Source: an uncultured Alphaproteobacteria bacterium
GTDB taxonomy: Bacteria > Pseudomonadota > Alphaproteobacteria > GCA-002720895
DNA length: 64,000 bases
Assembly (NCBI GenBank): GCA_902607475.1
Contig: CACLKH010000002.1
Span: 20,872-84,871 of the forward strand
Direction of reading: 5' to 3'
Under the pieces are notes generated by a model. It searched no databases. It worked only from the letters and a program-made list of their open reading frames with translations, and was not told where the DNA came from. Made by a program: the position numbers and the translations under genes. Below, piece by piece: positions 29,695-54,244 of the stretch; position 1 is the first letter of the stretch, and each line of letters opens with the position of its first letter.

Positions 29695-29784
29695 TTTTTA
29701 AATATTTTTTTTTTTATTTTATCTAGTATAAATTAGATTTTAAAAACATATACTTTATAATAAACAAAAAAAAATGATATTTAA

Positions 29785-31231: not shown

Positions 31232-31240
31232 TAAAATTTT

Positions 31241-34185: not shown

Positions 34186-34232
34186 TTTTTTATAGTATAT
34201 TAGGACAGATATCTCTAAAAATAAATTAAAAA

Positions 34233-38508: not shown

Positions 38509-38519
38509 AAAATAAATTT

Positions 38520-40412: not shown

Positions 40413-40414
40413 GA

Positions 40415-41653
40415 ATGGAAAAATTTTCTAAAACAATTGATAGATGCCAAATATCTGGAAAAAAGGATTTAAAAACAATAATATCATTAGGTTTTTTACC
40501 ACCTGTAAATAAATTAAGAAAGATTAATAGCCTTTCGCATGAATCAATTTTTTTTCCTACAGATCTAAAATACTCAAAAAGTTCGAAATTGGTTCAATTA
40601 ACTAATATTGTAGATAAAACAATATTATTTCCTAAGGAATACCCTTATACCAGTAGTACTACAAAAATATTAAGAGAAAATTTTAAAGAATTATATAATG
40701 AATGTTCAAGACTTTTTGATTTATCTCAAAATGATTTAATTATAGATATTGGTTCTAATGATGGAAACTTATTAAGTAATTTTAAAAATAATCATAAAGT
40801 TTTAGGTGTAACGCCTGAAGATATTGGAAAAATTGCAATAAAAAAAGGTATTAAAACTCTAATTAAATATTTTGATGAAAAAACATCAAAATATGTTTTA
40901 AAAAAATTTGGAAAAGCGAAAATTGTAACTGCAACTAATGTATTTGCTCATATAGAAGATGTAGATAAATTAATGAAAAATATTTTAAGAATTTTAGATA
41001 ATGACGGTATATTTATTACAGAGTCTCATTATTTAGTTTCTCTTATTAAAACTTTACAATATGACACTATTTATCATGAACATTTAAGATACTATTCTTT
41101 ACAAAGTTTAAAATATTTATTTGATAAATATGGGCTAGCGATTATACATGCAAAAAAAATTCCAACGCACGGGGGTTCTATTAGAGTATATGCAGCTCAG
41201 AAAGGTAAGTTTAAAATTTTAAACTCAGCAAAAAAAATTTTAAGTTATGAAAAAAAATATATTAATTGGAAAAATTTAAATAAATTTAAGGATGATGTAA
41301 TTAAATCAAAATTAAATTTATATAAAATATTAAGTGGAATTAAAGAAAAAAAACAAAAAATTTATGGTGTAGGCGCTCCTTCAAGAGCGAGTACACTAGT
41401 TAATTATTTAGGATTAACTAACGAAATAATAGAAAATGTTTGCGAGATTGAAGGTTCGTACAAAATTGGAAATTATATGCCAGGAACAAACATACCTATT
41501 GTTTCTGAAAAAAAACTTTTTAAAGAAAAACCTTCTTATGCACTTTTATTGTCTTGGCATATTTCTGATGAATTAATATTTAATTTAAGAAAAAAAGGTT
41601 ATAAGGGAAAATTTATTATTCCACTTCCAACACCTAGAGTAGTTTTAAAGTAA
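40415..41653 (+). CDS. NDP-sugar C-methyltransferase family protein (TylCIII-like, three-domain)
   Basis: N-terminal C..SG....LGFLPPVN region. SAM motif IIDIGSNDGNLL. C-terminal C-methyltransferase domain (YGVGAPSRASTLVNYLGL). The ATG at 40415 lies 2 nt after the upstream stop. Confidence 0.8.
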   Translation: MEKFSKTIDRCQISGKKDLKTIISLGFLPPVNKLRKINSLSHESIFFPTDLKYSKSSKLVQLTNIVDKTILFPKEYPYTSSTTKILRENFKELYNECSRLFDLSQNDLIIDIGSNDGNLLSNFKNNHKVLGVTPEDIGKIAIKKGIKTLIKYFDEKTSKYVLKKFGKAKIVTATNVFAHIEDVDKLMKNILRILDNDGIFITESHYLVSLIKTLQYDTIYHEHLRYYSLQSLKYLFDKYGLAIIHAKKIPTHGGSIRVYAAQKGKFKILNSAKKILSYEKKYINWKNLNKFKDDVIKSKLNLYKILSGIKEKKQKIYGVGAPSRASTLVNYLGLTNEIIENVCEIEGSYKIGNYMPGTNIPIVSEKKLFKEKPSYALLLSWHISDELIFNLRKKGYKGKFIIPLPTPRVVLK

Positions 41654-41669
41654 ATAAAAGAAAGAAAAA

Positions 41670-42617
41670 TTAATTATTTTTTATAATTTTATTTATACCT
41701 GAATCTAAATTATATTTTTGTTTAAACCCAAGATTTTTTATTTTTCCAGTATCAGGACATCTTATTTTTGTAGAACCTTCTCGTAAATTTGTATGTTTTA
41801 AATTAATTTTTTTATTTTTTAATTTTGCAATCTTTAAAGCTAATGCCTTAATCGAAATTTTTTCTTCAGTCCCGATATTATAAATATTTAAATGTTTTCC
41901 TTTTTTTAATAAAAGTTCAAAAGCTTGAATAAAATCATCAATAAAAATAAAAGATCTTATTTCTTTACCTGAACCCTGAATTACAAACTTTTTATTTTTT
42001 TTGTTAATTTTTTTTAATCTACTAATAAATTCTGGAATTACATGTTCATTTCCCATATTTGGTCCATATACATTATGCGGACGAAAAATAATTAATTTTT
42101 TAAAAAATTTTTTTCCGTAATGAACCCCCATTAACTCTGATAATATTTTTCCGCCTCCATAAGAATATCTTGGATTAAAAATATCAGGAATTTTTAAAGG
42201 TTCATTTTCATTAGTTGGTATTTTATTTGGTGTTTGATATACCTCTGAACTTGAAGCAATATACAATTCTTTTATTTTATGATTAATGCATCCTTCAAAT
42301 ATATTTAGATTACCCTTGATAGCTACATCTAAAACATCAACAGGTTTAGAATAGAAGTATTTTGTACCATTTATATATGCTAAATGAATTACAGTATCAA
42401 TATTTTTTAATACTTTATTTAATTGATAATAATTTCTAATATCACCCTTTACAAATTTCACTTGTTTTTTTATCGATGATAATCGTTTTAAGTCTCCTCG
42501 AGTATTGTTATCAAAAATTGTAATTTGATAACCTAATTTGATAAGTAAATGACATATATTTGAACCTACAAATCCTGTGCCTCCAGTTATAAGAAATTTT
42601 TTATTTTTTTTTGACAT
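41670..42617 (-). CDS. NAD-dependent epimerase/dehydratase (extended SDR, UDP-glucuronate decarboxylase/4,6-dehydratase-like)
   Basis: ITGGTGFVGSN Rossmann motif, SSSEVY, Yx3K (YGGGK). I prefer the start MSKKNKKFLITGG at 42617. The track's longer start would overlap the upstream GT2. Confidence 0.85.
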   Translation of the reverse strand: MSKKNKKFLITGGTGFVGSNICHLLIKLGYQITIFDNNTRGDLKRLSSIKKQVKFVKGDIRNYYQLNKVLKNIDTVIHLAYINGTKYFYSKPVDVLDVAIKGNLNIFEGCINHKIKELYIASSSEVYQTPNKIPTNENEPLKIPDIFNPRYSYGGGKILSELMGVHYGKKFFKKLIIFRPHNVYGPNMGNEHVIPEFISRLKKINKKNKKFVIQGSGKEIRSFIFIDDFIQAFELLLKKGKHLNIYNIGTEEKISIKALALKIAKLKNKKINLKHTNLREGSTKIRCPDTGKIKNLGFKQKYNLDSGINKIIKNN

Positions 42618-42637
42618 AATTTTTAAAATAATAAATT

Positions 42638-43363
42638 TTATACTTTTTCTGGTCCTTTTTTTAACCAAGTTGTCCCTAATCCATAGAAATACCATTTAAG
42701 ATATTGAGGTAGCCATTTAAAGATTTTAAATCTACTTGAGCCTTCACATCTTTCTACCCAAATAGCTGGAATTTCAGATATTTTAAATCTTAACCTATTG
42801 CATTTGACTAATAACTCTAACGAATATGCAAAACCTTTCTTTGATTCAATTTTTACTGCATTTATTAATCTTCTTGAAAATAGTCTAAAACCATTACTTG
42901 CATCTTTTACAGGAATACTTGAGAGTAAATAAAGAGAATTTGATGCTAATTTTATAAGGATAGATTTTATTATTGGACATCCTGTCATAGAACCTCCTTT
43001 TACAAATCTACTAGCAACAACAATATCGTTTCCATTGGTAAATTCTTTATACATCTCATCTAATATATTATGATTTTCAAAATCATCTGCTGGGTAAACA
43101 ATAACACATTCAGATTGATTATAATTCATTCCACTAATAACTGCTGTACAAGGTCCTTTTTCAAAGTTTTTTACAAGATGTATTTCAAAATTAAATTCTG
43201 AAAAATTTTTTTTAAAATTAAAAACATCATCTTCATCATTGTCATAACATAATAAAACTCTGAAAGGTGTTTTAACATGATCTTGAAAATTCTTTAAAAT
43301 TTTTAAAATATTTTTGCCTTCATTAAATATTGGAACAATTATATGTATAGGTAATTTATTCAT
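42638..43363 (-). CDS. Family 2 glycosyltransferase (polyprenyl-phosphate sugar synthase-like)
   Basis: IIVPIFNEGKNI, CYDNDEDD, YPADDF and ASRF motifs. Confidence 0.8.
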   Translation of the reverse strand: MNKLPIHIIVPIFNEGKNILKILKNFQDHVKTPFRVLLCYDNDEDDVFNFKKNFSEFNFEIHLVKNFEKGPCTAVISGMNYNQSECVIVYPADDFENHNILDEMYKEFTNGNDIVVASRFVKGGSMTGCPIIKSILIKLASNSLYLLSSIPVKDASNGFRLFSRRLINAVKIESKKGFAYSLELLVKCNRLRFKISEIPAIWVERCEGSSRFKIFKWLPQYLKWYFYGLGTTWLKKGPEKV

Positions 43364-44111
43364 ACTTTTTTTTTATTTTGTTAAATTTTTTTACATTTAG
43401 TGAAGCATCTTTAGCTATATATAAATTTAATTGTTTCATTAAATTTTTCCTTAAAAAAGGTTTCAATTCTGGTAAATATTTTTTATATATTTTATAATCT
43501 GATATTTTTTTACCACCAACATTAATAACTCCCTTGAAATCCGATTTGATTAAATAATATAAATATTTAACTAAAACATTAACTTCAATTTGCGATGTAT
43601 AAATATCTTTTGCTGAATATTTATATTTTAAACTTTGTTTATCAAAGAAACGAGTTCTAACAATAATATAATCATCAACTAATTTTATAAAAAACTCTGA
43701 TGCTAATTTTGTCCATCCATATATATTATATGGGCACAGGTCGCTATCTTCACTGTAATTTCCTTTAATAGAATTATAAACAGCATCAGTTGATATATGT
43801 ACTAATTTAATTTTATTTTTATTTTTATAGTTGTATTTTAATATCTCTTTTACCAAATTAGATGTTCCATTAATATTTACTTCAATAGCCTTATTTGGAT
43901 TATTTTCACAATCCTTTATTCTTGCCATAGCTGCACAATTAATAATTATTTCAATTCTTTTTTTATTTATTATTTTGTAAATTGACTTTCTTTTTAACAG
44001 ATCAAATTCTTTTCTTTTAGGGGCATAGATATTATTAAAAAAGTTAGAACTTAAAATTTTAGAACCTAAATTTCCAGTACCCCCTATGAGTAAAATATTC
44101 TTTTTTATCAT
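43356..44111 (-). CDS. Short SDR, RmlD-substrate-binding-domain-like NDP-sugar reductase/epimerase
   Basis: GGTGNLGSK Rossmann motif, STDAVY, YGWTK (Yx3K). Confidence 0.65.
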   Translation of the reverse strand: MIKKNILLIGGTGNLGSKILSSNFFNNIYAPKRKEFDLLKRKSIYKIINKKRIEIIINCAAMARIKDCENNPNKAIEVNINGTSNLVKEILKYNYKNKNKIKLVHISTDAVYNSIKGNYSEDSDLCPYNIYGWTKLASEFFIKLVDDYIIVRTRFFDKQSLKYKYSAKDIYTSQIEVNVLVKYLYYLIKSDFKGVINVGGKKISDYKIYKKYLPELKPFLRKNLMKQLNLYIAKDASLNVKKFNKIKKKYE

Positions 44112-45319
44112 TAAATAAATTTACAATTGTTTTTTTTACTAGATAGGAAACCCCAAACGTCAATTACAGTTTTACCTTTTAGATTCAATTTTTTGTAAAT
44201 ATTATGTGGAGAACATAAAATTATTAAATTACTTTTATTAATAACTTCATTTAGCGGTTTTAAATTTTTATCAACATTGACATAAGGATCAGTTGTCAAA
44301 ACATCTTTAGCATTAATTTCTAATTCTTTTTTTAATTTATAACTTAATGAATCTCTAATATCATCACTATCGGCTTTAAAAGCCATTCCCAATAATCCAA
44401 TTTTTAATTTTGATATTTTGAAAGTTTTAGTTATTTTTTCATGCAAAAATAAAACTAAACCTTCGTTAACTAACATTGCTTGATGGCCAATTGAAAATTG
44501 GTTTTTATAAAAAGAAGTCAGTTGCATTGTATCCTTAAGTAAACATGGCCCAGCAGAAAAACCTGCAGAAGGAATATTATTAGCACGAGAATAATCTTGT
44601 TTCATGATTTCATTTATTTTTTTATAACTAGCTCCTGCAGCTGAAGATATTTGATAAAATTGGTTTGAAATTGAAAATTCTATATATCTATATGCATTGC
44701 AAAATAATTTACTTAATTCTGCTTCAATTGGAGATGCTTTTACTATCTTTTTTGATATTTTTGAAAAAATTTTAGAAGCTTTTATAAATGCTTTTTCATT
44801 AAAAAAACCTATAATTTGTGGGACTTCTTTTATTTCTTTTATTGCTTTTCCTTGTACAACCCTTTCAGGACAATAAACAATATCAACATCTTTTTTTCTT
44901 TTTGCTATATATTTATTAAGCCAATCAGTTGTATTAGGAGATACGGATGATCTTAATATAATAAGCTGACCTTTAGATAAATAAGGTAAAATACTATCTA
45001 TACATTCTTTGATTACTGAATGAATAGGATTCATGTATTCATCAATCGGTGTTCCAATACAAATAATAATAATATCTTTTTTTTTAATTTCTGAAATGTG
45101 ATTTGAGATAGAAAAAGTTTTTTTTTTTAATATTTTATTTAATAAATTTTTTCCACCTTCTTCTTTATAAGGAAATATTCCATCATTAATTTTCTTTAAA
45201 TTTTCTTTATTTATATCATAAATTGATATTGGAAAATTTGCATTAGCTATACATAAAGAAAGTGGCAAACCAATATGTCCAGCACCGCCTATAACAATTA
45301 TCGATGGTTTTTTAGTCAT
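44111..45319 (-). CDS. Nucleotide-sugar dehydrogenase (UDP-glucose/GDP-mannose dehydrogenase family)
   Basis: GGAGHIGLPLS N-terminal NAD motif, a central GFSAGPCLLKD catalytic-Cys region and a C-terminal GMAFKADSDDIR domain. Confidence 0.88.
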   Translation of the reverse strand: MTKKPSIIVIGGAGHIGLPLSLCIANANFPISIYDINKENLKKINDGIFPYKEEGGKNLLNKILKKKTFSISNHISEIKKKDIIIICIGTPIDEYMNPIHSVIKECIDSILPYLSKGQLIILRSSVSPNTTDWLNKYIAKRKKDVDIVYCPERVVQGKAIKEIKEVPQIIGFFNEKAFIKASKIFSKISKKIVKASPIEAELSKLFCNAYRYIEFSISNQFYQISSAAGASYKKINEIMKQDYSRANNIPSAGFSAGPCLLKDTMQLTSFYKNQFSIGHQAMLVNEGLVLFLHEKITKTFKISKLKIGLLGMAFKADSDDIRDSLSYKLKKELEINAKDVLTTDPYVNVDKNLKPLNEVINKSNLIILCSPHNIYKKLNLKGKTVIDVWGFLSSKKNNCKFI

Positions 45320-45323
45320 TTTA

Positions 45324-47375
45324 TTATTTAAATATAGTACTTGGAATTTTTTTTACCCATTTTTTTATCATAGGTATAGTAAAAAGAGTATTTGTAGACA
45401 TTGCGCATTCATAAGTACACTTACATTCTGTTTTATAAATCCAAGATCTTAATTTTTTTGCTTTATTTGAAAAGAAAAGATCTTTTATTGAAGATTTTTT
45501 GTTCATTGATATTTTTCCAAGATTATCTGATAAAATTTCGCAACTTTTAAGAGATCCGTCTTCCATTATCACATAACTAAGATTACCAGCTGTGCACGGT
45601 GTAACAAATTTATTAAATTTGGCAACATTATAAATAAGTTCTTTTTGAAGAATTTCTTTAAGCATTAAAATTTTTGATCCAAAAAAACTATAATGAGTTA
45701 ATAGCCCATCAAAAATATATTTTTTATATGTATCAACAGTTTTTTTATAATTTTTTATAAGTTTATTTGGTAATGGCGGATGCTTGAGTGAATGATATCT
45801 AAATAAATTTATTGAAATTGCAGATGGATTAAAACTTTTAACTAAGGTTTTAATAAATCCAGGACATTCTTCAGAATTTTGAGGCGTTACTGTTATAATA
45901 AAGTTTAAATATAAATTTTTATATAATTTTTGAAGTTTTTTTAAGTTATTGAAAGTTTTTATTACTTGATCATAAGATCCTTTTCCCCTTATTTTATCAT
46001 GTATTTTTTTTGGTCCATCTAAAGAAAAAAATAAAATAAAATTACCTTTTGGATCAGATTGTAATATTCTCAATGTATCATTAAACGTTTTTTCAGAATA
46101 CCACCCATTAGTTGGAAAAGAAAAAACCTTAGGCCTGCAATTTTTTTTTACTAACCCAACTAATTCAGATAAATCTTTCCTTATAAACGGCTCACCACCT
46201 GCTAGCGAGTACCATAATACTGGACCTATTTCTTTAGTTGTTTTGTTTAAAAGATCTAGATTCATCTCTCCAGGGTCTGGAGCATCTAAAGTTTCTTTAT
46301 AAAAACAATGTTGACATCTTAAATTACATCTAGCAGTGACATAATTAATAATTTGAATTGGTAAACCATTTCTAATTAAAATTCTTTTTAAGCCAACTAA
46401 TAAATCAAAAAATGAAATACAATTATATTTAATTTCATTAATCAACCATTTAAAGAAAGAAAAAGTTGTTCCAAAAATGGTAGATGAGCCAACTAAAATA
46501 ACTGTGAAAATTGATTTAATAAAGTCTGGTATATTATTTTTGTAATAAATTTTTTTTAATAAAAAAGTTTGAAGAATAAAAAAAATAAAAAAAATAGACC
46601 AAAAAAAATTATTAATAAACATTAATGGAGCTATTAAAAAGAATAATCCGGTTAAGATATAAGAACTTTTTAATCTTATAGGCAAATTAATTCTATTTTT
46701 AAGAATTTTAGGATATAAAAACCGCCCTTGGAGAGCATGATTTGATTTATTTAAATAATCTTTTAAAAGACTTATTAAATTAAATTTTTTTAAATGAGTA
46801 GCTTGAAAGCTTGGATCAAATTTTATTTTGTAACCTAATTCTTTACAACGATAAAAAAATTCAATATCTTCATATCCTTTTAGAAATTCATTAAATCCTC
46901 CAGATTTATCATATATTTCTTTTTTAATTAAAAAATGTGACGATGAAAATATTTGATTTTTTTCTGTACCATTTAATAGTCTGTAATTTAAAGTAATATT
47001 CTGAAATTTTGAAAAGAAGTTTTCACCAATTTTATCATCATTATATTTTCCACAAACTATATCAAAATTTTTCAAAGGAAAACTCTGAAGATAATTAGTT
47101 GTTTTTGTTTCAATTAGAACATCATCATCTATAAAGAAAAGATATTTACCAATTGCATTTTTTGCTCCCAAGTTCCTTGTTTCTGAAACATTTTTTAAAT
47201 TTTTAAGGTTTATAAACTTTACTATTGGTTTGTTTATTTTTATATTTTTAATATTAGTAATTATTATAATTTCTTTAAAATTTATTTTTAATAACCTTTT
47301 TAGAATTTCATTTAAGTTTTCTTTTCTAGTTAACGGTATAACAACGGATGTATTTTTAAGCCAGTTTTCTTTCAT
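45324..47375 (-). CDS. Fusion protein: family 2 glycosyltransferase, membrane helices, then a radical SAM/SPASM-like domain
   Basis: N-terminus: VVIPLTRKENL, FFIDDDV, GYEDIEFFYR. Middle: hydrophobic helices (LFFLIAPLMFINNFFWSIFFIFFIL, IFTVILVGSSTIFGTTFSFF). C-terminus: CNLRCQHC, LAGGEPF and the Cys-rich tail PCTAG..SCEIL..CKCTYEC. Confidence 0.8.
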   Translation of the reverse strand: MKENWLKNTSVVIPLTRKENLNEILKRLLKINFKEIIIITNIKNIKINKPIVKFINLKNLKNVSETRNLGAKNAIGKYLFFIDDDVLIETKTTNYLQSFPLKNFDIVCGKYNDDKIGENFFSKFQNITLNYRLLNGTEKNQIFSSSHFLIKKEIYDKSGGFNEFLKGYEDIEFFYRCKELGYKIKFDPSFQATHLKKFNLISLLKDYLNKSNHALQGRFLYPKILKNRINLPIRLKSSYILTGLFFLIAPLMFINNFFWSIFFIFFILQTFLLKKIYYKNNIPDFIKSIFTVILVGSSTIFGTTFSFFKWLINEIKYNCISFFDLLVGLKRILIRNGLPIQIINYVTARCNLRCQHCFYKETLDAPDPGEMNLDLLNKTTKEIGPVLWYSLAGGEPFIRKDLSELVGLVKKNCRPKVFSFPTNGWYSEKTFNDTLRILQSDPKGNFILFFSLDGPKKIHDKIRGKGSYDQVIKTFNNLKKLQKLYKNLYLNFIITVTPQNSEECPGFIKTLVKSFNPSAISINLFRYHSLKHPPLPNKLIKNYKKTVDTYKKYIFDGLLTHYSFFGSKILMLKEILQKELIYNVAKFNKFVTPCTAGNLSYVIMEDGSLKSCEILSDNLGKISMNKKSSIKDLFFSNKAKKLRSWIYKTECKCTYECAMSTNTLFTIPMIKKWVKKIPSTIFK

Positions 47376-47483
47376 TTTTATATAAAAAAAGAAGTTTAAT
47401 TCATAGTATATTGTAATTTATAATTTTTTTTAAATTTATTTGTTTGTCTTTTATTAAAATTAAGAATATTTAGAAAGATTAAA

Positions 47484-48254
47484 TTATCTTTTAATTATTA
47501 TTGCTTGACCAGTTAAATTATAAGAGAAAAAATTATCTTTATTTTTTCTTATTTTATTCACAAAATTTGTAACACCCTCCGTAGTATGATAGCCATAATC
47601 ATCAAAAACTATAACTCCATTTTTTACCATTTTATTCCACACCCAATTATAACAATCTTTTGTAGAATTATATGAATCAACATCTAAATGACAAAAGGCA
47701 AACTTTTTATTTTTGAAACTATTTTTAAAATCATCTGGAAATATACCTTTTACTACTTTTGTATTTTTTAAATTCATTTTTTTTATTAATGCAATTACTG
47801 TTTCCTTTGATGTATCAGATACTTGATGATCTTTAAAATAAGGATCTTTTTTTGAAGTTTTTTTAATTCCAGTGAACGAGTCGCATAAAAAAATTTTAGA
47901 TTTTAAATTTAATAAAGCTATTTTTTTTGCAATTAAACAACCACTTCCACCTTTCCAAACACCGATTTCAATTATATCCCCATTCAAATGAGAAACTTCA
48001 TCAATTAATTGCCACAAATTATAAAGTCTATAAAAATCACACTTTGTATTTTTTTTTATTTGTTTTAGAGTTTCCTGAAATTTTTTATCTAATTTCCATG
48101 GTGTATAAAAACTTTCTGTAATAATAAAGGAGTGTTTTTTTGTATTTATGTCTGAATAAAATAAATATAAAAGAAAAAATAAAAACTTTCTTACTATATC
48201 AATAATTAATCTAGCCAAAGAAAGTTTTAAATGTATTAATTTATCTTTTTTCAA
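47484..48254 (-). CDS. TylF/macrocin-O-methyltransferase-family SAM-dependent methyltransferase
   Basis: GDIIEIGVWKGGSG and HLDVDSYNSTKDCYNWVWNKMVKNGVIVFDDYG match the TylF family pattern. TTG start, N-terminal hydrophobic helix. Confidence 0.7.
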   Translation of the reverse strand: MKKDKLIHLKLSLARLIIDIVRKFLFFLLYLFYSDINTKKHSFIITESFYTPWKLDKKFQETLKQIKKNTKCDFYRLYNLWQLIDEVSHLNGDIIEIGVWKGGSGCLIAKKIALLNLKSKIFLCDSFTGIKKTSKKDPYFKDHQVSDTSKETVIALIKKMNLKNTKVVKGIFPDDFKNSFKNKKFAFCHLDVDSYNSTKDCYNWVWNKMVKNGVIVFDDYGYHTTEGVTNFVNKIRKNKDNFFSYNLTGQAIIIKR

Positions 48255-49518
48255 AATTAAAACCTAATGAATCAATGTTTTTAAATGAATTAAAAATTAT
48301 ATAAAAGAAACTTAGTGTTGATAAAAAAAAAGGTAAATTAATATCCTGAATAACAATACAAGAAATTATTAATACATATTTAAAAATATCTTGATTTATT
48401 TGGAAGTGATTAAAATTAATAATAGTTACTAAATAAAAGAATGCAGGAATAAACAAATAAAAATCATATATTGTCACATATGGATTAATTAAAAGAATAA
48501 TTATAGATCCTAAAGCTATCAATTTAGTTTTATTTTTATTATTTATTTTTAAATTAGTCAATGAGATTCTATAAATCAACCCCCCGATAAAAATAAAAAT
48601 AACGAAAATAAGCCAGATAATATTTGTAAATAATGAAGGTCCAGATAATAAATAGCCATTAAAAATAACAGCAATGTTTGTTGGAAGACTTTCTATGATA
48701 TTTCTTAAACCCAATGTGTGGTTAAAAGAAAAATAAAATTCTCTTGTATTAACTTTTTGCAATTGGCTCAAATATTCTAAAAATAATTTATTTTCAAAAA
48801 TTAGATAATAAAAGTTAACAAATATAATTATTAGAAAAGAAATAATGAAATGCTTAATATATTTTTTTTCATAGATAAATAATCCTAAAAGTGCAAATAA
48901 AAAAAACTGTGGCTTAATTAGTGATATAAAAATTATTATTAAAGAAAAAATCACTTTATAGTTTTTATGTAAACAAAAAATGGCAAATAATAATATTGCA
49001 TAAACTACATTAGAAATATTTCCAGTAGTTAATGCTTTAAATAAAATTCCTCCAAAGGAAAAAAAAATTAATAATGGATAAATTATTTTAAATTTTTGTA
49101 TTGGAAAAATTTTATATGAGAAAAATGATACTGTAATTACTGAAACAATGCTAACTAATAACCATATTTGTTTTATTACATTGAATTCTATTTTGCTTAT
49201 AAATGATAAGAATTTTATGTAAGTTTGACTATAAAAGTAACCTGGCATTCCCCAATCTTTTCCCAGGATGTTTTTCATACAATCAATAAGAGATTGTGGT
49301 GTTCCACTTAAGCCAAAACCATACGGAGATACACCTTCTGAGTAAATTTTTCCTGAACAGTAATTCATTAAAAGATCGTCAAATAAGTATCTATCACCAA
49401 AAACAAACTTTTCAAAAAAATAGTTGATTGTATTTGCTGTAACTATAATTAATAAAATAAAAAAAAATATTTTTAATAAAATTATTGGATCCTTTTTGAG
49501 ATTTTTTATTTTTATCAT
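48241..49518 (-). CDS. Polytopic membrane protein, GT87/DUF2029-like putative GT-C glycosyltransferase
   Basis: 425 aa, paralogous to 14049..15272. N-terminal loop DDLLMNYCSGKIYSEGVSPY. Confidence 0.5.
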   Translation of the reverse strand: MIKIKNLKKDPIILLKIFFFILLIIVTANTINYFFEKFVFGDRYLFDDLLMNYCSGKIYSEGVSPYGFGLSGTPQSLIDCMKNILGKDWGMPGYFYSQTYIKFLSFISKIEFNVIKQIWLLVSIVSVITVSFFSYKIFPIQKFKIIYPLLIFFSFGGILFKALTTGNISNVVYAILLFAIFCLHKNYKVIFSLIIIFISLIKPQFFLFALLGLFIYEKKYIKHFIISFLIIIFVNFYYLIFENKLFLEYLSQLQKVNTREFYFSFNHTLGLRNIIESLPTNIAVIFNGYLLSGPSLFTNIIWLIFVIFIFIGGLIYRISLTNLKINNKNKTKLIALGSIIILLINPYVTIYDFYLFIPAFFYLVTIINFNHFQINQDIFKYVLIISCIVIQDINLPFFLSTLSFFYIIFNSFKNIDSLGFNFEKR

Positions 49519-49532
49519 TTTTTTTTTTTTTT

Positions 49533-50315
49533 TTATTTTTTTTTTAAATTAAATTTTTTTTGATATTTAAAACCAAATCTATGTAATGAGCCAGAGAAAG
49601 TATTTATAAGTATCTTACTGGCATACTCTATGCCATTTAAATAAGAAATTTCTTTTCCGTAAAAAGTTGGAATTGCTATTTCTTTTATTTTGAAATTAGC
49701 TAATTTAAATTGAACTATTATTTCAGTATCAAAATTATAACTATTAGAGTTTAATAAAAATGGAATTTTTTTTAAAGATCTTACATTATAAATTCTATAA
49801 CCAGAATGAAACTCAGATAATTTTGTTCCAAGTAAAAAATTTTGAATTTTTGTTAAAATAATATTTCCTATAAATTTATAAAAAGGCATACCACCTTTAA
49901 TCGCATCCTTTTTATTTATCATTCTTGAACCAAAGACAGCATCATATTTTTTATTAATTATTTCATTTAGTAATTTGGGTAATTTTTCAGGAGCATACTG
50001 TCCGTCACCATGTAACAATACAACATAATCAAAATTATTTCTTATCGCATAAGAATAACCTGCCTTTTGACTGCCTCCATAACCAAGGTTTTTTTTATTT
50101 TGAGCGATATTAATATTGTATTTTTTTTTTTTTTTTAATTTTAGAGCTCTTTTATAAGTTTTATCTTTAGATGCATCATCGTTAATTAATATTTGAGTAT
50201 TATATTTTTCAATACTTTTAGGTATTCTATTTAATACACTTTCAAGAAAATTTTCAACATTATAGGCTGTTACAAGTATCAATATTTTAATACTTTTATT
50301 CTTTTTTTTTAGCAT
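49533..50315 (-). CDS. Family 2 glycosyltransferase (polyprenyl-phosphate sugar synthase-like)
   Basis: LVTAYNVENF, NDDASKDKT, YGGSQKAGY and LLHGDGQYAPE motifs. Close paralog of 53403..54239. Confidence 0.85.
   Translation of the reverse strand: MLKKKNKSIKILILVTAYNVENFLESVLNRIPKSIEKYNTQILINDDASKDKTYKRALKLKKKKKYNINIAQNKKNLGYGGSQKAGYSYAIRNNFDYVVLLHGDGQYAPEKLPKLLNEIINKKYDAVFGSRMINKKDAIKGGMPFYKFIGNIILTKIQNFLLGTKLSEFHSGYRIYNVRSLKKIPFLLNSNSYNFDTEIIVQFKLANFKIKEIAIPTFYGKEISYLNGIEYASKILINTFSGSLHRFGFKYQKKFNLKKK
49852..49898. repeat. 47-nt perfect inverted repeat, arm 1 (inside GT2 49533..50315)
   Basis: The reverse complement of 49852..49898 equals 53814..53860 exactly (aaaggtggtatgcctttttataaatttataggaaatattattttaac), compared base by base. 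Confidence 0.85.
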
Positions 50316-50366
50316 TATTATTTTAAGATAAAAATATTTTTTTCTATCTTATCAATAAAAAAAAAA

Positions 50367-51368
50367 ATGAAAATTTTTATTTCTGGCATTGCAGGGTTTC
50401 TTGGCAGCCATATAGCTGACAAAATGATTTCATTAGGTCATAAAGTCTCAGGATGCGATAATCTGATAGGAGGCTACCTTGATAACGTTCCTGACAAAGC
50501 TAATTTTTACCAAATAGATTGTAACGATTATTCAACAATGGTAAAAATTACTAAGGGAATAGATATTGTTATTCATTGTGCAGCAACGGCCTATGAAGGT
50601 TTGAGTGTTTTTAGTCCAAATATTGTTACTCAAAATATTGTAGGATCATCTGTTTCATTAATTACTGCAGCTATTTCTAATAAAGTTAAACGTATCGTTT
50701 ATTGTTCTTCAATGGCAAGATATGGCACAAACAAAGTACCTTTTACTGAAAACATGATTCCAAAACCTCAAGATCCATATGGTATTGGTAAAGTTGCAGG
50801 AGAAGATTTTTTAAAAAATTTATGTGGTATACATAATGTTGAATGGGTTATAGCCGTTCCTCATAATATAGTTGGACCAAGACAAAAATATGATGATCCA
50901 TATAGGAATGTAGCAAGTATTATGATTAATTTAATGTTGCAAAAAAGACAACCGATAATATATGGAAACGGAAAACAAAAGAGATGTTTCTCTTTTATTC
51001 AAGATGATATTGATATTTTAACTAAATTAGCTTTCAGCAAAAAAGCAAAAAATCAAATAATAAACATTGGACCAGACGAAGAATTTATAACAATTAATGA
51101 ATTAGCAAATACTATTGCTAATTTATTAGCTTTTAATGTTAATCCTATATATAAAAAAGAAAGGCCACAGGAAGTATTTTTAGCCAATTGCTCGGCACAA
51201 AAAGCAAGAAAATTATTTAATTATAAAACTAATTATACTTTAAAAAAAGGTTTAACTGAAATGATTGAATATATTGAAAATAAAGGCGTTAGAAAATTTA
51301 AATACCATCTTGATTTAGAAATAGTTAATAATTTAACTCCAGTTACATGGAAAAATAAAATTTTTTAG
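50367..51368 (+). CDS. NAD-dependent epimerase/dehydratase (extended SDR)
   Basis: ISGIAGFLGSH Rossmann motif, CSSMARYG, YGIGK (Yx3K). Confidence 0.85.
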   Translation: MKIFISGIAGFLGSHIADKMISLGHKVSGCDNLIGGYLDNVPDKANFYQIDCNDYSTMVKITKGIDIVIHCAATAYEGLSVFSPNIVTQNIVGSSVSLITAAISNKVKRIVYCSSMARYGTNKVPFTENMIPKPQDPYGIGKVAGEDFLKNLCGIHNVEWVIAVPHNIVGPRQKYDDPYRNVASIMINLMLQKRQPIIYGNGKQKRCFSFIQDDIDILTKLAFSKKAKNQIINIGPDEEFITINELANTIANLLAFNVNPIYKKERPQEVFLANCSAQKARKLFNYKTNYTLKKGLTEMIEYIENKGVRKFKYHLDLEIVNNLTPVTWKNKIF

Positions 51369-51389
51369 GTTTATTAGGATTTAATTAAA

Positions 51390-52013
51390 TTGAAAAAAGA
51401 AAAAATAATTTTAATTGTTATTATTTCTTTATCAATAATTTATATTCTAAATTGGGTCTGGCATTCAAAATTTACAAATTATTTTATTAGTGAAAAAACA
51501 AGCACAACTAAAAAAGTTAATGAGAATAAAAAGGTATTAATAAAAAATATAAAAAATATTGATAAAATAAATTTAATTGAAGAAAGATTTAAAAATTTAT
51601 ATAAAAAAATTGATTTATCTACTTCAATCGGATATGTAACTGATTTAAACGGTAGCTATGATTGGGTAAGAAATTTTCAGTACACTCAATATACTTTGTC
51701 CCCAGCTATTTTAGATGAAACAAATTATAATGGTTTAATTATAGGAAACTTTACAGATGTAAATGTTGTAAATAAAATTAAGAAACTGGATTATATTTTT
51801 TGTAAAAAAAAAATTAATAAAAACAATAGTTCATATCTAACTATGGATGATTTGTATAAAATTGAAAATCAATTAGTTATTTATTCACCAAAATTAGTAA
51901 ATACAGGATATTTTTATAAAGAGACTTACGATTGTAAAAAAAATTATAAAATATCTATTTTAGAAGAGCTAGGAAATGGAGTAGTTTTATTAAAAATAGA
52001 AAACTTAGATTAA
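51390..52013 (+). CDS. Hypothetical membrane-anchored protein
   Basis: 207 aa, TTG start, one N-terminal helix (IILIVIISLSIIYILNWVW). No recognisable domain. Confidence 0.45.
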   Translation: MKKEKIILIVIISLSIIYILNWVWHSKFTNYFISEKTSTTKKVNENKKVLIKNIKNIDKINLIEERFKNLYKKIDLSTSIGYVTDLNGSYDWVRNFQYTQYTLSPAILDETNYNGLIIGNFTDVNVVNKIKKLDYIFCKKKINKNNSSYLTMDDLYKIENQLVIYSPKLVNTGYFYKETYDCKKNYKISILEELGNGVVLLKIENLD

Positions 52014-52017
52014 AATA

Positions 52018-53250
52018 ATGAACTTTTTAATTTTATTTATTGGATTATTTACAAATTATATTTTTGGTTGTTTTTTTTGTAAAAATTTTTTCTTCAAAAA
52101 TAATGAAGCTGTTTTAGAAAATTTTTTTATTAAAAATTTTTTTGGTTTTTTCTTTACTTCTTCTATTTATTTTTTTTTACTTTTCACATTTAATATTTCA
52201 CCTTTAAAAATTCTATTAACAGAATTATTTTTTCTTATTATTTTTTTATATTTTTCAAAATCATATTTAAAAATTTTTTTTATAGATAAGTTTAGATTTA
52301 ACTTAAAAAAAATAAGAATAAACTTTATTGAAAACAAGATAATTTATTTTTTTCTTGCAATTTATAGTTTTATTTTTTTTTTTAGAAATATAAAATCTCC
52401 GCATGGTGAAATCGATGCTATTAACCATTGGGGAAGAGGCGCAAGATTTTTATTCAGAGATAATGAATTTTGGACAAACAATTTTGATTTAAGATTTCTT
52501 TTTCATACTGATTACCCACTATTTATCCAGTCTACCGTTTCTAGAATTTGGAGTCTTTTAAATTTTGAAACACAGTTAGTACCGATAACTATTCATTATT
52601 TATTTTTTTTAGGTTTTCCTTTAATTTTTTATAAATTAATAAAAAAAATATTTAGTCATAATATTTCTTTAATCTCAACTCTATTTCTAATTTGCTTTCC
52701 GTTTTATTCACAAGTAGCAATGAGTCATTATGCAGATATACAATTATCATTTTTTATGTTTTTAAGTGTTTTTTTTGCATTTAATTTATTTATTAACGAA
52801 AAAAATAATATAAATCCAAATTTGTTCTTTTTTTTAGGATTTTTGACTGGTATTACATCATGGGTTAAAAGTGAAGGTATTCTATTTTCATTGATAGTTT
52901 TTTTATCGTTAATTTTTGTATTTTATTTATATAAAGAAAAATTTTTTTTTAAAAAAATATTTTATTATATTTTTGGTTTTTTTATTTCTTTTATCCCTCA
53001 TTTATCACTTAGTTATATTTTTAAAACAAAAACTGAAATATTAAGATTTCAAACATTATCGGATAAAATTAACTTTATTTCTGATTATCAAAATGTTTTA
53101 GATGTATTGAAATGTTTTTTTATGGAAATGATAAAATTTAATAATTACTCATTAATCTTACTTATTTCTTCAATATACTTTCTAGGTTTTCATTTTAAAA
53201 AACAAAAACATATTATATTTATATTTTCTATATTATTTATATTTTTTTAA
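52018..53250 (+). CDS. Polytopic membrane protein, ArnT/PMT-like (GT-C) candidate, apparently truncated by a frameshift
   Basis: 410 aa with more than 10 hydrophobic helices and an HTDYPLF loop. The ORF stops right after a T7 run. A plausible C-terminus continues in another frame (see 53247..53375). Confidence 0.5.
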   Translation: MNFLILFIGLFTNYIFGCFFCKNFFFKNNEAVLENFFIKNFFGFFFTSSIYFFLLFTFNISPLKILLTELFFLIIFLYFSKSYLKIFFIDKFRFNLKKIRINFIENKIIYFFLAIYSFIFFFRNIKSPHGEIDAINHWGRGARFLFRDNEFWTNNFDLRFLFHTDYPLFIQSTVSRIWSLLNFETQLVPITIHYLFFLGFPLIFYKLIKKIFSHNISLISTLFLICFPFYSQVAMSHYADIQLSFFMFLSVFFAFNLFINEKNNINPNLFFFLGFLTGITSWVKSEGILFSLIVFLSLIFVFYLYKEKFFFKKIFYYIFGFFISFIPHLSLSYIFKTKTEILRFQTLSDKINFISDYQNVLDVLKCFFMEMIKFNNYSLILLISSIYFLGFHFKKQKHIIFIFSILFIFF

Positions 53251-53375
53251 CGCCTCTAGATCCTGTTCTTCATATAAAAACTTCATTAAATAGAATATTA
53301 TTTCAATATCATCCAATAATAATTTTAGCCTTTTTTAGTTTATGTACTAAAATTAAAATAAAGAATAAATTTTAA
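53247..53375 (+). other. Out-of-frame C-terminal continuation (about 42 codons) of the 52018..53250 membrane protein
   Basis: Reading one base later after the T-run gives LTPLDPVLHIKTSLNRILFQYHPIIILAFFSLCTKIKIKNKF-stop. It is open and protein-like, in what would otherwise be a 152-nt intergenic gap (long for this genome). Confidence 0.5.
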
Positions 53376-53402
53376 AAATGTTTTAAGGTGTAAGAATTTA
53401 TA

Positions 53403-54239: not shown

Positions 54240-54244
54240 ATTTC

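What the first reader, a model, noticed from the sequence alone, without database searches (positions are those of the whole stretch)
45324..47375. Membrane-anchored GT2 glycosyltransferase covalently fused to a radical SAM / SPASM-like domain
**Seen in the sequence.** One 683-aa ORF carries three readable modules:
- An N-terminal GT2 domain (VVIPLTRKENL, DxD-like FFIDDDV, GYEDIEFFYR).
- A hydrophobic block of roughly four helices.
- A C-terminal radical SAM core (CNLRCQHC, GGEPF) followed by a Cys-rich SPASM/twitch-like tail (PCTAG, SCEIL, CKCTYEC).

**Established knowledge.** Radical SAM/SPASM enzymes are known as peptide maturases, anaerobic sulfatase maturases and a few soluble sugar-modifying enzymes (BtrN, DesII, AviX12-type epimerases). 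I know of no characterised case where such a domain is tethered through a membrane anchor to a GT2.

**Inference.** The radical domain modifies the sugar or nascent glycan made by the attached GT at the membrane, for example by epimerisation, oxidation or deoxygenation. An oxygen-labile Fe-S enzyme kept in two copies in a minimal, apparently aerobic genome argues for an important envelope function.
Basis: partly seen in the sequence, partly recalled or inferred. Interest (0 to 1): 0.8.

Follow-up and report, generated by a model that had tools for sequence, protein, structure and literature searches.

The report
Glycosyltransferase fused to radical SAM enzyme
A marine SAR11-type bacterium carries an intact gene that joins a sugar-transferring enzyme to an iron-sulfur radical enzyme; this pairing is widespread and unstudied, and probably edits sugars bound for the cell envelope.

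Summary
ORF 45324..47375 (-) encodes an intact 683-aa protein with three parts:
- a GT2 domain with invariant DxD and ED motifs;
- a hydrophobic block;
- a radical SAM core with a C-terminal twitch-type, truncated SPASM domain. It has five invariant Cys rather than the 7-8 of a full SPASM.

The fusion is not an artefact. Identical or near-identical ORFs lie on independent contigs, and about 70 clusters at 50% identity share the architecture across bacteria, with adjacent gene pairs in a DPANN archaeon.

The "second copy" is a split paralogous pair at 26-28% identity: rSAM 17443..18534 and GT2-TM 16457..17449.

GT2 and this rSAM are coupled in every arrangement seen: fused in both orders, with or without the hydrophobic block, or as adjacent genes. 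Their neighbours are DPMS/GtrB-type GT2s, GT-C membrane transferases, a GtrA flippase and sugar-nucleotide enzymes.

No curated family, solved structure or paper assigns a function.

The best reading is radical tailoring of the sugar handled by the GT2, inside a polyprenyl-phosphate/GT-C envelope glycosylation pathway. The chemistry and substrate remain inferred. I rate it a new variant of a known kind, of moderately high interest.

The parts
45324..47375 (-). Whole ORF: 683-aa GT2 / hydrophobic block / radical SAM-twitch fusion protein (stop codon 45324..45326)
46686..47375 (-). GT2 (GT-A fold) domain, residues 1-230. DxD (F81-I-D83-D-D85) lies at 47121..47135 and E169-D170 at 46866..46871
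   Evidence: Pfam PF10111 and PF00535; invariant columns; Foldseek matches to TarP, ppGalNAcT, RmlT and PcManGT; coordinates
46362..46685 (-). Hydrophobic block and stalk, residues 231-338. Hydrophobic segments at 235-254, 257-273 and 286-310. Basic amphipathic stalk at 311-338 with near-invariant D324 and invariant-looking R331 and R335
   Evidence: family-averaged hydropathy and charge profile; AlphaFold2 helices 233-254, 256-277 and 282-334
45696..46361 (-). Radical SAM core, residues 339-560. C350-x3-C354-x2-C357 lies at 46305..46328 and GGEP 393-396 at 46188..46199
   Evidence: PF04055 at 3.6e-12; invariant columns; Foldseek to anSME, SkfB, BlsE and DesII
45327..45695 (-). Twitch-type (truncated SPASM) domain, residues 561-683. 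C594-x17-C612 (with G607-x4-C612) lies at 45540..45596 and C651-x-C653-x3-C657 at 45405..45425
   Evidence: five invariant Cys; alignment to the SkfB twitch region; PF13186 sub-threshold here but above threshold in relatives; motifs shared with the split family
44111..45319 (-). Nucleotide-sugar 6-dehydrogenase, 4 nt downstream of the fusion. Likely supplier of a uronic-acid donor
   Evidence: TIGR03026 at 258 bits, above its cut-off; Pfam. An ortholog (39% identical in L003) sits in the same position in L003, L089 and L091
43356..44111 (-). Short RmlD-like SDR (251 aa), overlapping its neighbours. A possible reductase partner
   Evidence: Pfam and NCBIfam; the same short SDR precedes the small GT2 in L092
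42638..43363 (-). Small GT2 without TM segments (241 aa), with a DPMS/GtrB-type catalytic domain. The conserved companion of the fused gene
   Evidence: PDB hits DPMS 5mlz at 1.8e-16 and GtrB 5ekp at 3e-8; sub-threshold NCBIfam hits to PgfS, PpgS and AglJ; orthologs 34-60% identical next to the fusion in L001, L003, L089, L091 and L092
41670..42695 (-). NAD-dependent epimerase/dehydratase (341 aa), last gene of the co-directional run
   Evidence: an SDR sits in the same position in L003 and L091
47484..48254 (-). TylF-type methyltransferase, upstream gene in the same run
48241..49518 (-). GT87-like polytopic membrane protein (putative GT-C transferase that uses polyprenyl-P-sugar)
   Evidence: PF09594 at 4e-5, slightly below its cut-off; no PDB or NCBIfam hit
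49533..50315 (-). Second small GT2 without TM segments (260 aa; AglJ, Dol-P-hexose transferase and ArnC-like), first gene of the run
17443..18534 (-). Split paralogue: stand-alone radical SAM-twitch protein (363 aa) with the same Cys motifs (CNARCSFC; C276...C294; C332-x-C334-x3-C338)
   Evidence: hhalign against the fused family gives probability 100 and E = 6e-62; AlphaFold2 pLDDT 86.9
16457..17449 (-). Split paralogue: GT2 with three C-terminal hydrophobic segments (330 aa), overlapping the rSAM gene by 7 nt
   Evidence: orthologs 32-38% identical directly downstream of the rSAM in L093-L095
18547..19293 (-). Small GT2 (248 aa), 12 nt upstream of the split rSAM

Best explanation
**Shown.** The ORF encodes a real bifunctional enzyme. 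It joins a catalytically intact GT2 glycosyltransferase, through a hydrophobic membrane-association block, to a radical SAM domain carrying one twitch-type auxiliary Fe-S site. It belongs to a large uncharacterised family in which this particular rSAM and a GT2 are obligate partners.

**Inferred.** The enzyme works on the cytoplasmic face, inside a polyprenyl-phosphate-sugar / GT-C ('three-component'-like) envelope glycosylation pathway.
1. The GT2 domain transfers a sugar from a nucleotide sugar to a membrane-bound acceptor. The acceptor is most likely polyprenyl-phosphate-linked. In this locus the sugar is probably a uronic acid made by the adjacent 6-dehydrogenase.
2. The rSAM domain cleaves SAM reductively and abstracts a hydrogen atom from that sugar.
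3. A redox-type tailoring follows: dehydration or decarboxylation as in BlsE, or oxidation followed by reduction by the neighbouring SDR, giving net epimerisation. The twitch cluster acts as the electron conduit.
4. The edited lipid-linked sugar is flipped and used by the neighbouring GT-C-type membrane transferases to decorate the envelope.
For: **Architecture and active-site motifs.**

**Coupling of GT2 and rSAM.**
- About 70 fused representatives among the best 150.
- A reverse-order fusion (P0335) and a fusion without a hydrophobic block (P0322).
- Adjacent genes ordered rSAM then GT2-TM in the window and in L093-L095, and GT2-TM then rSAM in L017.
- The fused and split rSAMs are colinear homologues (E = 6e-62) with the same five Cys.

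**Link to polyprenyl-P / GT-C pathways.**
- The conserved companion is a DPMS/GtrB-type GT2. It is present in 13 of the 15 distinct contexts I examined.
- A GtrA_DPMS_TM flippase and a UbiA / SDR / FAD_binding_4 (DPA-type) cassette lie next to the fusion in L090.
- A GtrC-type GT_STM0557_N gene lies in L095.
- PMT_2 GT-C genes sit directly downstream of the stand-alone rSAM in two Planctomycetota loci.
- GT87-like, DUF6044 and PMT_2-like membrane proteins lie in the window.
- The pairing occurs in bacteria, CPR and, as adjacent genes, in a DPANN archaeon. That fits a universal acceptor such as a polyprenyl phosphate.

**Sugar substrate rather than peptide.**
- BlsE, which acts on a glucuronyl residue, gives the highest TM-scores for both models (0.67 and 0.70). 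DesII also matches.
- In the blasticidin pathway a GT that uses UDP-GlcA (BlsD) is followed by the rSAM BlsE (PMC3715490).
- A nucleotide-sugar 6-dehydrogenase lies immediately downstream of the fusion in 4 of 10 fused contexts.

**Precedents for editing lipid-linked sugar donors.** The auxiliary epimerase of three-component systems (PMC11127046). From my own knowledge: ArnD and DprE1/DprE2.
Against: - No experiment exists for any member.
- The GT2 domain is not DPMS/GtrB-like by sequence. Its nearest named families are MftF, EpsD and TIGR04283, all far below cut-off. Polyprenyl-P as its acceptor is therefore unproven, and a separate DPMS-type GT2 is already present.
- Some fusions lack any hydrophobic segment, so membrane-level chemistry is not obligatory.
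- The rSAM domain is more conserved (50-62% identity) than the GT2 domain (31-43%), while the neighbouring sugar-nucleotide genes vary from locus to locus. That argues for a common substrate, not a locus-specific sugar.
- By sequence the closest solved relatives are peptide-modifying (SkfB, anSME) or MoaA. BlsE reaches only E = 9e-6.
- Three hydrophobic segments leave the topology unresolved.
- No radical SAM enzyme has been shown biochemically to act on a polyprenyl-phosphate-linked sugar.
Confidence: 0.45

Rival explanations
1. Donor-side tailoring. The rSAM domain modifies the nucleotide sugar before transfer, as DesII does on a TDP-sugar. The attached GT2 then transfers the unusual and possibly unstable product. 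In this reading the fusion serves substrate channelling, not membrane chemistry.
For: The structural neighbours DesII and BlsE act on nucleotide- or nucleoside-linked sugars. Stand-alone family members are soluble. Some fusions have no hydrophobic block (P0322). In the split form the rSAM gene precedes the GT2 gene in four of the five adjacent-gene contexts whose order I recorded (the window and L093-L095 against L017). Sugar-nucleotide enzymes always flank the pair.
Against: The rSAM is strongly conserved although the flanking sugar-nucleotide genes differ from locus to locus. The GT2 carries a conserved basic amphipathic stalk and hydrophobic block in most members. The association with GT-C, GtrA and DPMS-type genes needs no donor-side step.
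Confidence: 0.2
2. Glycolipid head-group remodelling. The GT2 glycosylates a membrane lipid that is not a carrier. The rSAM then rearranges the sugar, for example by ring contraction to a cyclitol or carbasugar, as proposed for HpnI/HpnK/HpnJ in hopanoids and for calditol synthase Cds.
For: GT followed by rSAM on a lipid head group is the only described precedent for this logic (review PMC13459092). Some relatives carry precomputed hits to Glyco_transf_21, the ceramide glucosyltransferase-type family. In Parabacteroides distasonis a related rSAM lies next to a GT1 annotated with 'lipid glycosylation'. Island A contains a polysaccharide deacetylase, an analogy to HpnK.
Against: No hopanoid or tetraether genes lie nearby. 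No HpnI, HpnJ or Cds family appears among the hits shown. Occurrence in both bacteria and archaea argues against a domain-specific glycerolipid acceptor. The conserved partners are carrier-lipid enzymes and GT-C transferases.
Confidence: 0.12
3. Peptide or protein maturase. The twitch rSAM modifies a peptide or protein residue (thioether, epimerisation or formylglycine-type oxidation). The GT2 glycosylates the same substrate, as in glycocin, sactipeptide or mycofactocin-like pathways.
For: The nearest sequence relatives are SkfB, anSME, PapB, WgkB, ScmE and MftC-type maturases. The nearest named GT2 is MftF. SunS also appears among the PDB hits. The Dehalococcoidales locus L003 also carries a B12-rSAM, an rSAM-SPASM, a 90-aa ORF, an S8 peptidase and an ABC exporter.
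Against: All such hits score 6-10 times below family cut-offs. No conserved precursor-peptide gene or RRE-type domain was noticed across the loci. No sulfatase is conserved nearby. The constant neighbours are sugar and carrier-lipid enzymes.
Confidence: 0.08
4. The two domains have unrelated or partly degenerate activities. For example, the rSAM domain could be only a structural or regulatory Fe-S module, and the fusion could be incidental.
For: No functional data exist. The membrane topology is unresolved.
Against: All catalytic motifs of both domains are invariant across 91 relatives. The coupling recurs in at least four independent gene arrangements. The rSAM domain is the most conserved part of the protein.
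Confidence: 0.04

Closest known systems
BlsD / BlsE of blasticidin S biosynthesis (a glycosyltransferase using UDP-glucuronic acid, then the radical SAM 'cytosylglucuronate decarboxylase', PDB 7vob)
   Same: A glycosyltransfer is followed by radical SAM chemistry on the transferred (glucuronyl) sugar. BlsE gives the highest TM-scores for both models (TMt 0.67 and 0.70). It has a C-terminal CxCxxC site proposed for a second cluster (PMC3715490). Here a nucleotide-sugar 6-dehydrogenase lies next to the fusion.
   Different: BlsD and BlsE are separate soluble proteins of a nucleoside-antibiotic pathway, and the acceptor is cytosine. The sequence relation is weak (E = 9e-6, behind SkfB, MoaA and viperins). 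There is no carrier-lipid or GT-C context.
SPASM/twitch radical SAM enzymes: SkfB (6efn), anSME (4k36), MoaA, CteB
   Same: The partial TIM-barrel rSAM core plus a C-terminal beta-hairpin/helix domain with a Cys-x(n)-G-x4-Cys element. These are the best sequence and Foldseek E-values. The Cys pattern aligns with the SkfB twitch.
   Different: Those enzymes act on peptides, proteins or GTP. anSME and CteB have two auxiliary clusters and 7-8 Cys. Family scores here are far below cut-offs (for example anSME 50.9 bits against 349). None is coupled to a GT2.
HpnI / HpnK / HpnJ (bacteriohopanetetrol cyclitol ether) and calditol synthase Cds
   Same: The logic is the same: a GT puts a sugar on a membrane-embedded molecule, then a radical SAM enzyme remodels that sugar (PMC13459092).
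   Different: These are separate genes in hopanoid or tetraether lipid loci. No homology to them was detected among the hits shown. Their chemistry (ring contraction) is itself only proposed.
Three-component periplasmic glycosylation systems and their donor-editing enzymes (GtrB/GtrA/GtrC; ArnC/ArnD/ArnT; polyprenyl-phosphoribose synthase + epimerase + GT136; DprE1/DprE2)
   Same: The gene context matches: DPMS/GtrB-type GT2, a GtrA-like flippase and GT-C transferases. These systems also supply the idea of editing the lipid-linked sugar before flipping (PMC11127046).
   Different: No described system of this kind contains a radical SAM enzyme or a second, MftF-like GT2. The papers returned have zero occurrences of 'radical SAM'.
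MftF (mycofactocin glycosyltransferase) and the TIGR04283 GT-like protein of arsenosugar clusters
   Same: These are the nearest named GT2 families to the GT2 part. Both work in pathways that contain a radical SAM enzyme.
   Different: The scores are 38-99 bits against cut-offs of 182-280. No MftA/B/C/D/E or arsenic genes are present. In those pathways the rSAM and the GT do not act on consecutive steps on one sugar.

Membership tests
Radical SAM superfamily (PF04055) | CX3CX2C motif that binds the SAM-cleaving [4Fe-4S] cluster | tested here: met
   C350-N-L-R-C354-Q-H-C357, invariant in 91 relatives. PF04055 scores 47.2 bits against a cut-off of 29.5.
Radical SAM superfamily (PF04055) | GGE SAM-binding motif and partial TIM-barrel fold | tested here: met
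   G393-G394-E395 are invariant. The AlphaFold2 model has alternating beta/alpha elements from residue 341 to about 524 and matches anSME, SkfB, BlsE and DesII at probability 1.00.
Radical SAM superfamily (PF04055) | Reductive cleavage of SAM to the 5'-deoxyadenosyl radical | not testable with these tools
   This needs anaerobic reconstitution.
Full SPASM domain (PF13186 / TIGR04085) | Seven or eight Cys (CX9-15GX4C ... CX2CX5CX3C ... C) that bind two auxiliary [4Fe-4S] clusters | tested here: not met
   Only five Cys are conserved downstream of the core: 594, 612, 651, 653 and 657. PF13186 scores 12.8 bits against a cut-off of 21.5 in this protein.
Twitch (truncated SPASM) subclass | Beta-hairpin with C-x(n)-G-x4-C plus one or two further Cys, enough for a single auxiliary cluster | tested here: met
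   C594-x17-C612 with G607-x4-C612, and CxCx3C, align to the SkfB twitch region. Strands at 600-603 and 608-610 lie in the model. Whether the cluster actually binds was not testable.
Glycosyltransferase family 2 (GT-A fold, inverting) | Rossmann-like GT-A fold with a DxD metal/nucleotide-sugar motif and a downstream acidic catalytic residue | tested here: met
   PF10111 scores 38.6 bits and PF00535 scores 33.0 bits, both above their cut-offs. D83, D85, E169 and D170 are invariant. Foldseek matches TarP, ppGalNAcT, RmlT and PcManGT.
DPMS / GtrB / ArnC-type polyprenyl-phosphate glycosyltransferases | Sequence membership of the GT2 domain of the fusion in this clade, with polyprenyl-P as acceptor | tested here: inconclusive
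   For the fused GT2 domain, DPMS 5mlz reaches only E = 8.3e-5 over the N-terminal 110 residues. No such NCBIfam family appears among its hits. Foldseek aligns 334 columns to the membrane GT2 PcManGT. In contrast, the neighbouring small GT2 (42638..43363) matches DPMS at 1.8e-16.
Anaerobic sulfatase-maturating enzyme (TIGR03942) | Score above the family cut-off, two auxiliary clusters and a sulfatase substrate | tested here: not met
   The score is 50.9 bits against a cut-off of 349. Cysteines for a second auxiliary cluster are absent. No conserved sulfatase neighbour was seen.
Mycofactocin system (MftF glycosyltransferase / MftC rSAM) | Scores above the TIGR03965 and TIGR03962 cut-offs, with mftA-E neighbours | tested here: not met
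   MftF scores 38.3 bits (fusion) and 98.8 bits (split GT2-TM) against a cut-off of 280. MftC scores 38-46 bits against 265. No mft genes appear in any locus.
Hopanoid HpnI/HpnJ or calditol synthase Cds | Homology to these proteins and a hopanoid or tetraether locus context | tested here: inconclusive
   No HpnI or HpnJ model appears among the hits listed, but only the best 25 of 67 were shown. No Cds sequence was available for comparison. No shc or tetraether genes lie in the loci.

The most novel reading that the evidence does not exclude
This GT2 / twitch-rSAM module would be a new and widespread enzymatic step: radical SAM editing of a polyprenyl-phosphate-linked sugar on the cytoplasmic face, before flipping and GT-C transfer. 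That would make it an unrecognised fourth component of 'three-component' periplasmic glycosylation. It would generate sugars that have no nucleotide-sugar route, in SAR11, CPR bacteria, DPANN archaea and many other lineages.
Probability: 0.3. Interest if true: 0.8.

Novelty: new variant of a known kind. Interest (0 to 1): 0.6.

Why it matters
Radical SAM enzymes that act on carbohydrates are few, and almost all come from antibiotic pathways. None is known in carrier-lipid-based envelope glycosylation.

This rSAM is coupled to a glycosyltransferase in nearly every locus examined, usually a GT2. It has about 1,600 strong relatives, and the two are covalently fused in about 70 clusters at 50% identity. 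It occurs in the strain-variable surface-glycan islands of the ocean's most abundant bacteria, and in CPR and DPANN organisms.

Working out its reaction would give three things:
- a new sugar-tailoring chemistry;
- an explanation for part of the unknown SAR11 surface structure that phages and grazers see;
- a function for a large block of genes now labelled 'radical SAM protein' or 'glycosyltransferase'.

The fused form is a natural Rosetta stone that names the partner and gives a single polypeptide to reconstitute.

Tried and rejected
- **Artefactual fusion or frameshift: rejected.** The ORF is intact, identical or near-identical copies lie on independent contigs, and many relatives share the architecture.
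- **Full SPASM domain: rejected** in favour of a twitch domain.
- **anSME / sulfatase maturation and mycofactocin membership: rejected** on scores and context.
- **The second copy as a recent duplicate: rejected.** It is 26-28% identical and belongs to a different subfamily.
- **Genome-collection scan.** It was dominated by generic radical SAM genes, because one search pattern (RCNLRCxHC) is too general. Only about a dozen of the 80 loci were true family members, which I sorted out with a motif filter.
- **Phage and plasmid collections.** No close relative. The one useful lead was the Parabacteroides distasonis rSAM + GT1 pair.
- **Promoter and terminator scan of 41-51 kb.** Uninformative in this AT-rich DNA; it found fewer sites than shuffled sequence gives.
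- **Rfam and tRNA scans.** They found only tRNA-Leu at 19396..19484.
- **Literature.** Eight searches found no paper on a GT2-radical SAM fusion or on a radical SAM enzyme in Gtr/Arn-type systems.
- **Membrane topology.** Not settled.
- **N-terminal extensions of the Planctomycetota and Magnetococcales relatives.** I took them for membrane anchors. They look like ORF-calling artefacts in GC-rich DNA.


Full report
**1. The observation**

The ORF lies at 45324..47375 on the minus strand, starts with ATG and encodes 683 aa.

Pfam finds GT2 models over residues 10-180: PF10111 at 1.1e-9 and PF00535 at 7.2e-8. It finds Radical_SAM over residues 346-503 at 3.6e-12. The SPASM model scores only E = 0.15 over residues 594-653, below its cut-off.

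NCBIfam gives many radical SAM/SPASM families, among them WgkB, ScmE, ACGX, anSME, PapB and SkfB. Each scores 40-55 bits against cut-offs of 170-850, so the protein belongs to no curated family. The GT2 part is nearest to MftF, EpsD and TIGR04283, again far below cut-off.

In an alignment of 91 full-length relatives the following are invariant (coordinates checked):
- the GT2 signatures R67-N68, F81-x-D83-x-D85, E169-D170 and H194;
- the rSAM signatures C350-x3-C354-x2-C357 and G393-G394-E395;
- exactly five C-terminal cysteines: C594, C612, C651, C653 and C657.

These five Cys align with the twitch domain of SkfB. A full SPASM domain needs seven or eight, so the tail is a twitch or partial SPASM domain that probably holds one auxiliary cluster.

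AlphaFold2 with this alignment gives a confident model (pLDDT 90.5, pTM 0.91). Foldseek against the PDB matches the C-terminal half to anSME, SkfB, BlsE, SuiB and DesII. It matches the N-terminal half to GT-A enzymes, including the membrane GT2 PcManGT.

The hydrophobic block has three hydrophobic segments (235-254, 257-273, 286-310). A basic amphipathic stalk follows (311-338) with a near-invariant D324 and invariant-looking R331 and R335. In the model the helices are 233-254, 256-277 and one long helix 282-334.

**2. The fusion is real, and it is a family**

The exact protein is on record from an NCBI contig of 87,292 bp. Five further members at 90% identity or more lie on other contigs.

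A word-indexed search returned 203 hits. More than 110 of the 120 listed are full-length fusions at 36-96% identity. The source names that exist include Pelagibacter, Elusimicrobia and Dehalococcoidales, and are only generic.

A profile search of 1.84 billion representatives gave 1,595 proteins at E <= 1e-30. Of the best 150, about 70 are full-length fusions and about 60 are stand-alone rSAMs of 350-400 aa.

Fused or adjacent forms also occur in other lineages:
- fused in Wolfebacteria;
- adjacent genes in Bacteriovoracales and Woesearchaeota;
- a more distant adjacent pair in Desulfosarcinaceae.

**3. The 'second copy'**

A tblastn search of the window finds a split, diverged version:
- an rSAM at 17443..18534 (363 aa, 28% identical to residues 339-667);
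- a GT2 with three C-terminal hydrophobic segments at 16457..17449 (330 aa, 26% identical to residues 62-292), which overlaps the rSAM gene by 7 nt.

The stand-alone rSAM has more than 1,000 relatives, none with a functional name. Profile-profile comparison with the fused family gives probability 100 and E = 6e-62, colinear from the stalk to the C-terminus. The five Cys and several other motifs are shared.

**4. Coupling of GT2 and rSAM**

In three distant split loci (L093-L095) the rSAM is directly followed by an ortholog of the split GT2-TM at 32-38% identity. In a Pelagibacteraceae single-cell genome (L017) the order is reversed.

Other architectures exist:
- rSAM-twitch followed by GT2-TM in one polypeptide (P0335, 743 aa);
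- GT2 fused directly to the rSAM with no hydrophobic block (P0322, 558 aa);
- a fusion with a single hydrophobic helix (P0343, 600 aa).

The constant is therefore the GT2-rSAM pairing. The membrane block varies.

Two further observations widen the picture:
- A related rSAM with the same motifs in Parabacteroides distasonis lies next to a GT1-type 'lipid glycosylation' gene.
- In two Planctomycetota loci the stand-alone rSAM lies directly upstream of a PMT_2 GT-C gene.

**5. Genomic context**

In the window the fusion is the fourth gene of a tightly packed co-directional run (gaps of -58 to +108 nt). In order:
1. small GT2, 49533..50315
2. GT87-like membrane protein, 48241..49518
3. TylF methyltransferase, 47484..48254
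4. the fusion, 45324..47375
5. nucleotide-sugar 6-dehydrogenase, 44111..45319
6. short RmlD-like SDR, 43356..44111
7. small GT2, 42638..43363
8. epimerase/dehydratase, 41670..42695

The small GT2 at 42638..43363 has no TM segment. Its best solved relatives are dolichol-P-mannose synthase (1.8e-16) and GtrB (3e-8). Orthologs at 34-60% identity accompany the fusion in L001, L003, L089, L091 and L092. A small or GtrB-like GT2 is present in 13 of the 15 distinct contexts I examined.

The block fusion / 6-dehydrogenase / small GT2 / SDR is syntenic between this SAR11-type window and Dehalococcoidales-type contigs (L003, L091). L089 has the same order with an extra oxidoreductase gene.

Other contexts add:
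- a GtrA_DPMS_TM flippase and a UbiA / SDR / FAD_binding_4 cassette of the decaprenyl-phosphoarabinose type (L090);
- a GtrC-type GT_STM0557_N gene (L095);
- large polytopic proteins without a family assignment.

The window itself holds four putative GT-C-type proteins: 36595..38508, DUF6044 at 38484..40412, GT87-like at 48241..49518 and PMT_2-like at 52018..53250.

Both GT2/rSAM units sit in low-GC islands. Island A ends at tRNA-Leu 19396..19484.

**6. Mechanism**

*Shown.* Both domains keep their catalytic motifs. They are obligate partners. They live among enzymes that make, edit, flip and use polyprenyl-phosphate-linked sugars.

*Inferred.* The GT2 domain transfers a sugar to a membrane-bound acceptor. 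The rSAM abstracts a hydrogen atom from that sugar, with the twitch cluster acting as electron conduit. The product feeds GT-C transferases.

The specific chemistry is open. The best structural analogue by TM-score is BlsE (0.67 and 0.70). BlsE acts on the glucuronyl residue installed by the glycosyltransferase BlsD from UDP-GlcA (PMC3715490). With a 6-dehydrogenase gene adjacent in 4 of 10 fused contexts, uronosyl dehydration or decarboxylation is attractive for this subfamily.

An anSME- or BtrN-like oxidation, followed by reduction by the adjacent SDR, would give net epimerisation as DprE1/DprE2 do. This is an alternative. Editing of lipid-linked donors has precedent in three-component systems (PMC11127046).

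*Against.*
- The sequence link to BlsE is weak (E = 9e-6).
- The fused GT2 is not DPMS-like.
- Fusions without a TM block exist.
- The rSAM is more conserved than the neighbouring sugar genes would predict.
- The topology is unresolved. All three hydrophobic segments cannot span the membrane if both domains are cytoplasmic, which the need for nucleotide sugar, SAM and a reductant requires. The single-residue break at position 255 in the model suggests a kinked helix paired with the long helix 282-334, but I had no coordinates to check this.

**7. Rivals**

- Donor-side tailoring of the nucleotide sugar (0.20).
- Glycolipid head-group remodelling, as proposed for HpnI/HpnJ and Cds (0.12; PMC13459092).
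- Peptide or protein maturation (0.08).
- Incidental or degenerate fusion (0.04).

**8. Comparison with what is known, and novelty**

The protein is a member of the radical SAM superfamily, of the twitch subclass (by sequence and predicted structure) and of GT2. It fails the membership tests for full SPASM, anSME and the mycofactocin proteins.

No NCBIfam model, PDB entry or paper among those searched describes the fused architecture. None describes a radical SAM enzyme in Gtr/Arn-type systems.

I file it as a new variant of a known kind: carbohydrate-tailoring radical SAM chemistry, here hard-wired to a GT2 and set in a carrier-lipid/GT-C context.

**9.

The argument from oxygen sensitivity is weak. 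The same window encodes MoaA (TIGR02666, 347 bits, above its cut-off), so twitch radical SAM enzymes are normal in this aerobe. The GT2/rSAM units lie in flexible glycan islands, not in the core genome.

**Verdict.** Interest is 0.6.

Noticed in passing
window 9375..19484: Island A is a low-GC glycan island that ends at tRNA-Leu(taa) 19396..19484. It has an Arn/Flm-like gene set: Wzy_C 10137..11486, GT2 11495..12211, polysaccharide deacetylase 12276..13214, formyltransferase 13211..14038, GT87-like 14049..15272 and UDP-GlcNAc 2-epimerase 15333..16460. This suggests an amino-sugar that is formylated or deacylated on a carrier lipid.
   Followed up: partly
window 35654..55695: Island B carries four putative GT-C-type membrane proteins: 36595..38508 (no family), DUF6044 38484..40412, GT87-like 48241..49518 and PMT_2-like 52018..53250. 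It also carries several small GT2s without TM segments (42638..43363, 49533..50315, 53403..54239). Together they look like an array of Gtr-like modules. I recognised no GtrA-type flippase. RmlD (54245..55156) and RmlC (55144..55695) close the island.
   Followed up: partly
window 28711..35670: A molybdenum-cofactor block lies between the two islands: MoaA 28711..29694 (a third, twitch-type radical SAM enzyme, above its family cut-off), a molybdopterin oxidoreductase 32059..34254, FdhD 34233..35066 and a MobA-like gene 35047..35670. GC content is higher here (about 0.35).
   Followed up: partly
window 40406..41653: An NDP-hexose C-methyltransferase (Methyltransf_13/23/14 architecture) lies next to island B's membrane proteins. 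The same gene type recurs near the GT2/rSAM module in L089, and fused to an SDR in L017.
   Followed up: no
L090 8001..14837: In a Tara metagenome contig the fused gene lies next to a GtrA_DPMS_TM flippase gene and a UbiA / adh_short / FAD_binding_4 cassette. The cassette resembles the decaprenyl-phosphoribose to arabinose (DprE1/DprE2) route.
   Followed up: no
L011 9689..14069 and L012 6574..10921: In two Planctomycetota MAGs a stand-alone member of the rSAM family lies directly upstream of a PMT_2 (GT-C) gene, with no GT2 next to it. Their long N-terminal extensions look like ORF-calling artefacts in GC-rich DNA.
   Followed up: partly
L096 8929..11406 (Parabacteroides distasonis plasmid NZ_OY725749.1): In a cultured gut bacterium, a 403-aa 'radical SAM protein' with the same CTAG...G....CEL and CxCx3C motifs is followed by a GT1-type protein annotated with 'lipid glycosylation'. 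This could be a tractable model organism for the family.
   Followed up: partly
P0335, P0322, P0343 (representative proteins): Alternative architectures of the same pairing: rSAM-twitch then GT2-TM (743 aa), GT2 fused to the rSAM with no hydrophobic block (558 aa), and a fusion with one hydrophobic helix (600 aa).
   Followed up: partly
window 16457..17449 and L093-L095: The split GT2-TM proteins share a conserved G-N-x-x-P-G-x-G motif in the third hydrophobic segment (possibly a re-entrant loop) and a C-terminal K-[IL]-Y-[KR]-N motif. A similar 'KKIYYKNN' lies in the loop at residues 274-281 of the fused protein.
   Followed up: no
L093 4462..7907 and L094 5938..7560, 11017..12963: B12-binding radical SAM genes and asparagine-synthase-like amidotransferase genes recur next to the split rSAM/GT2-TM pair in two unrelated contigs. 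A B12-rSAM also lies in the Dehalococcoidales locus L003.
   Followed up: no
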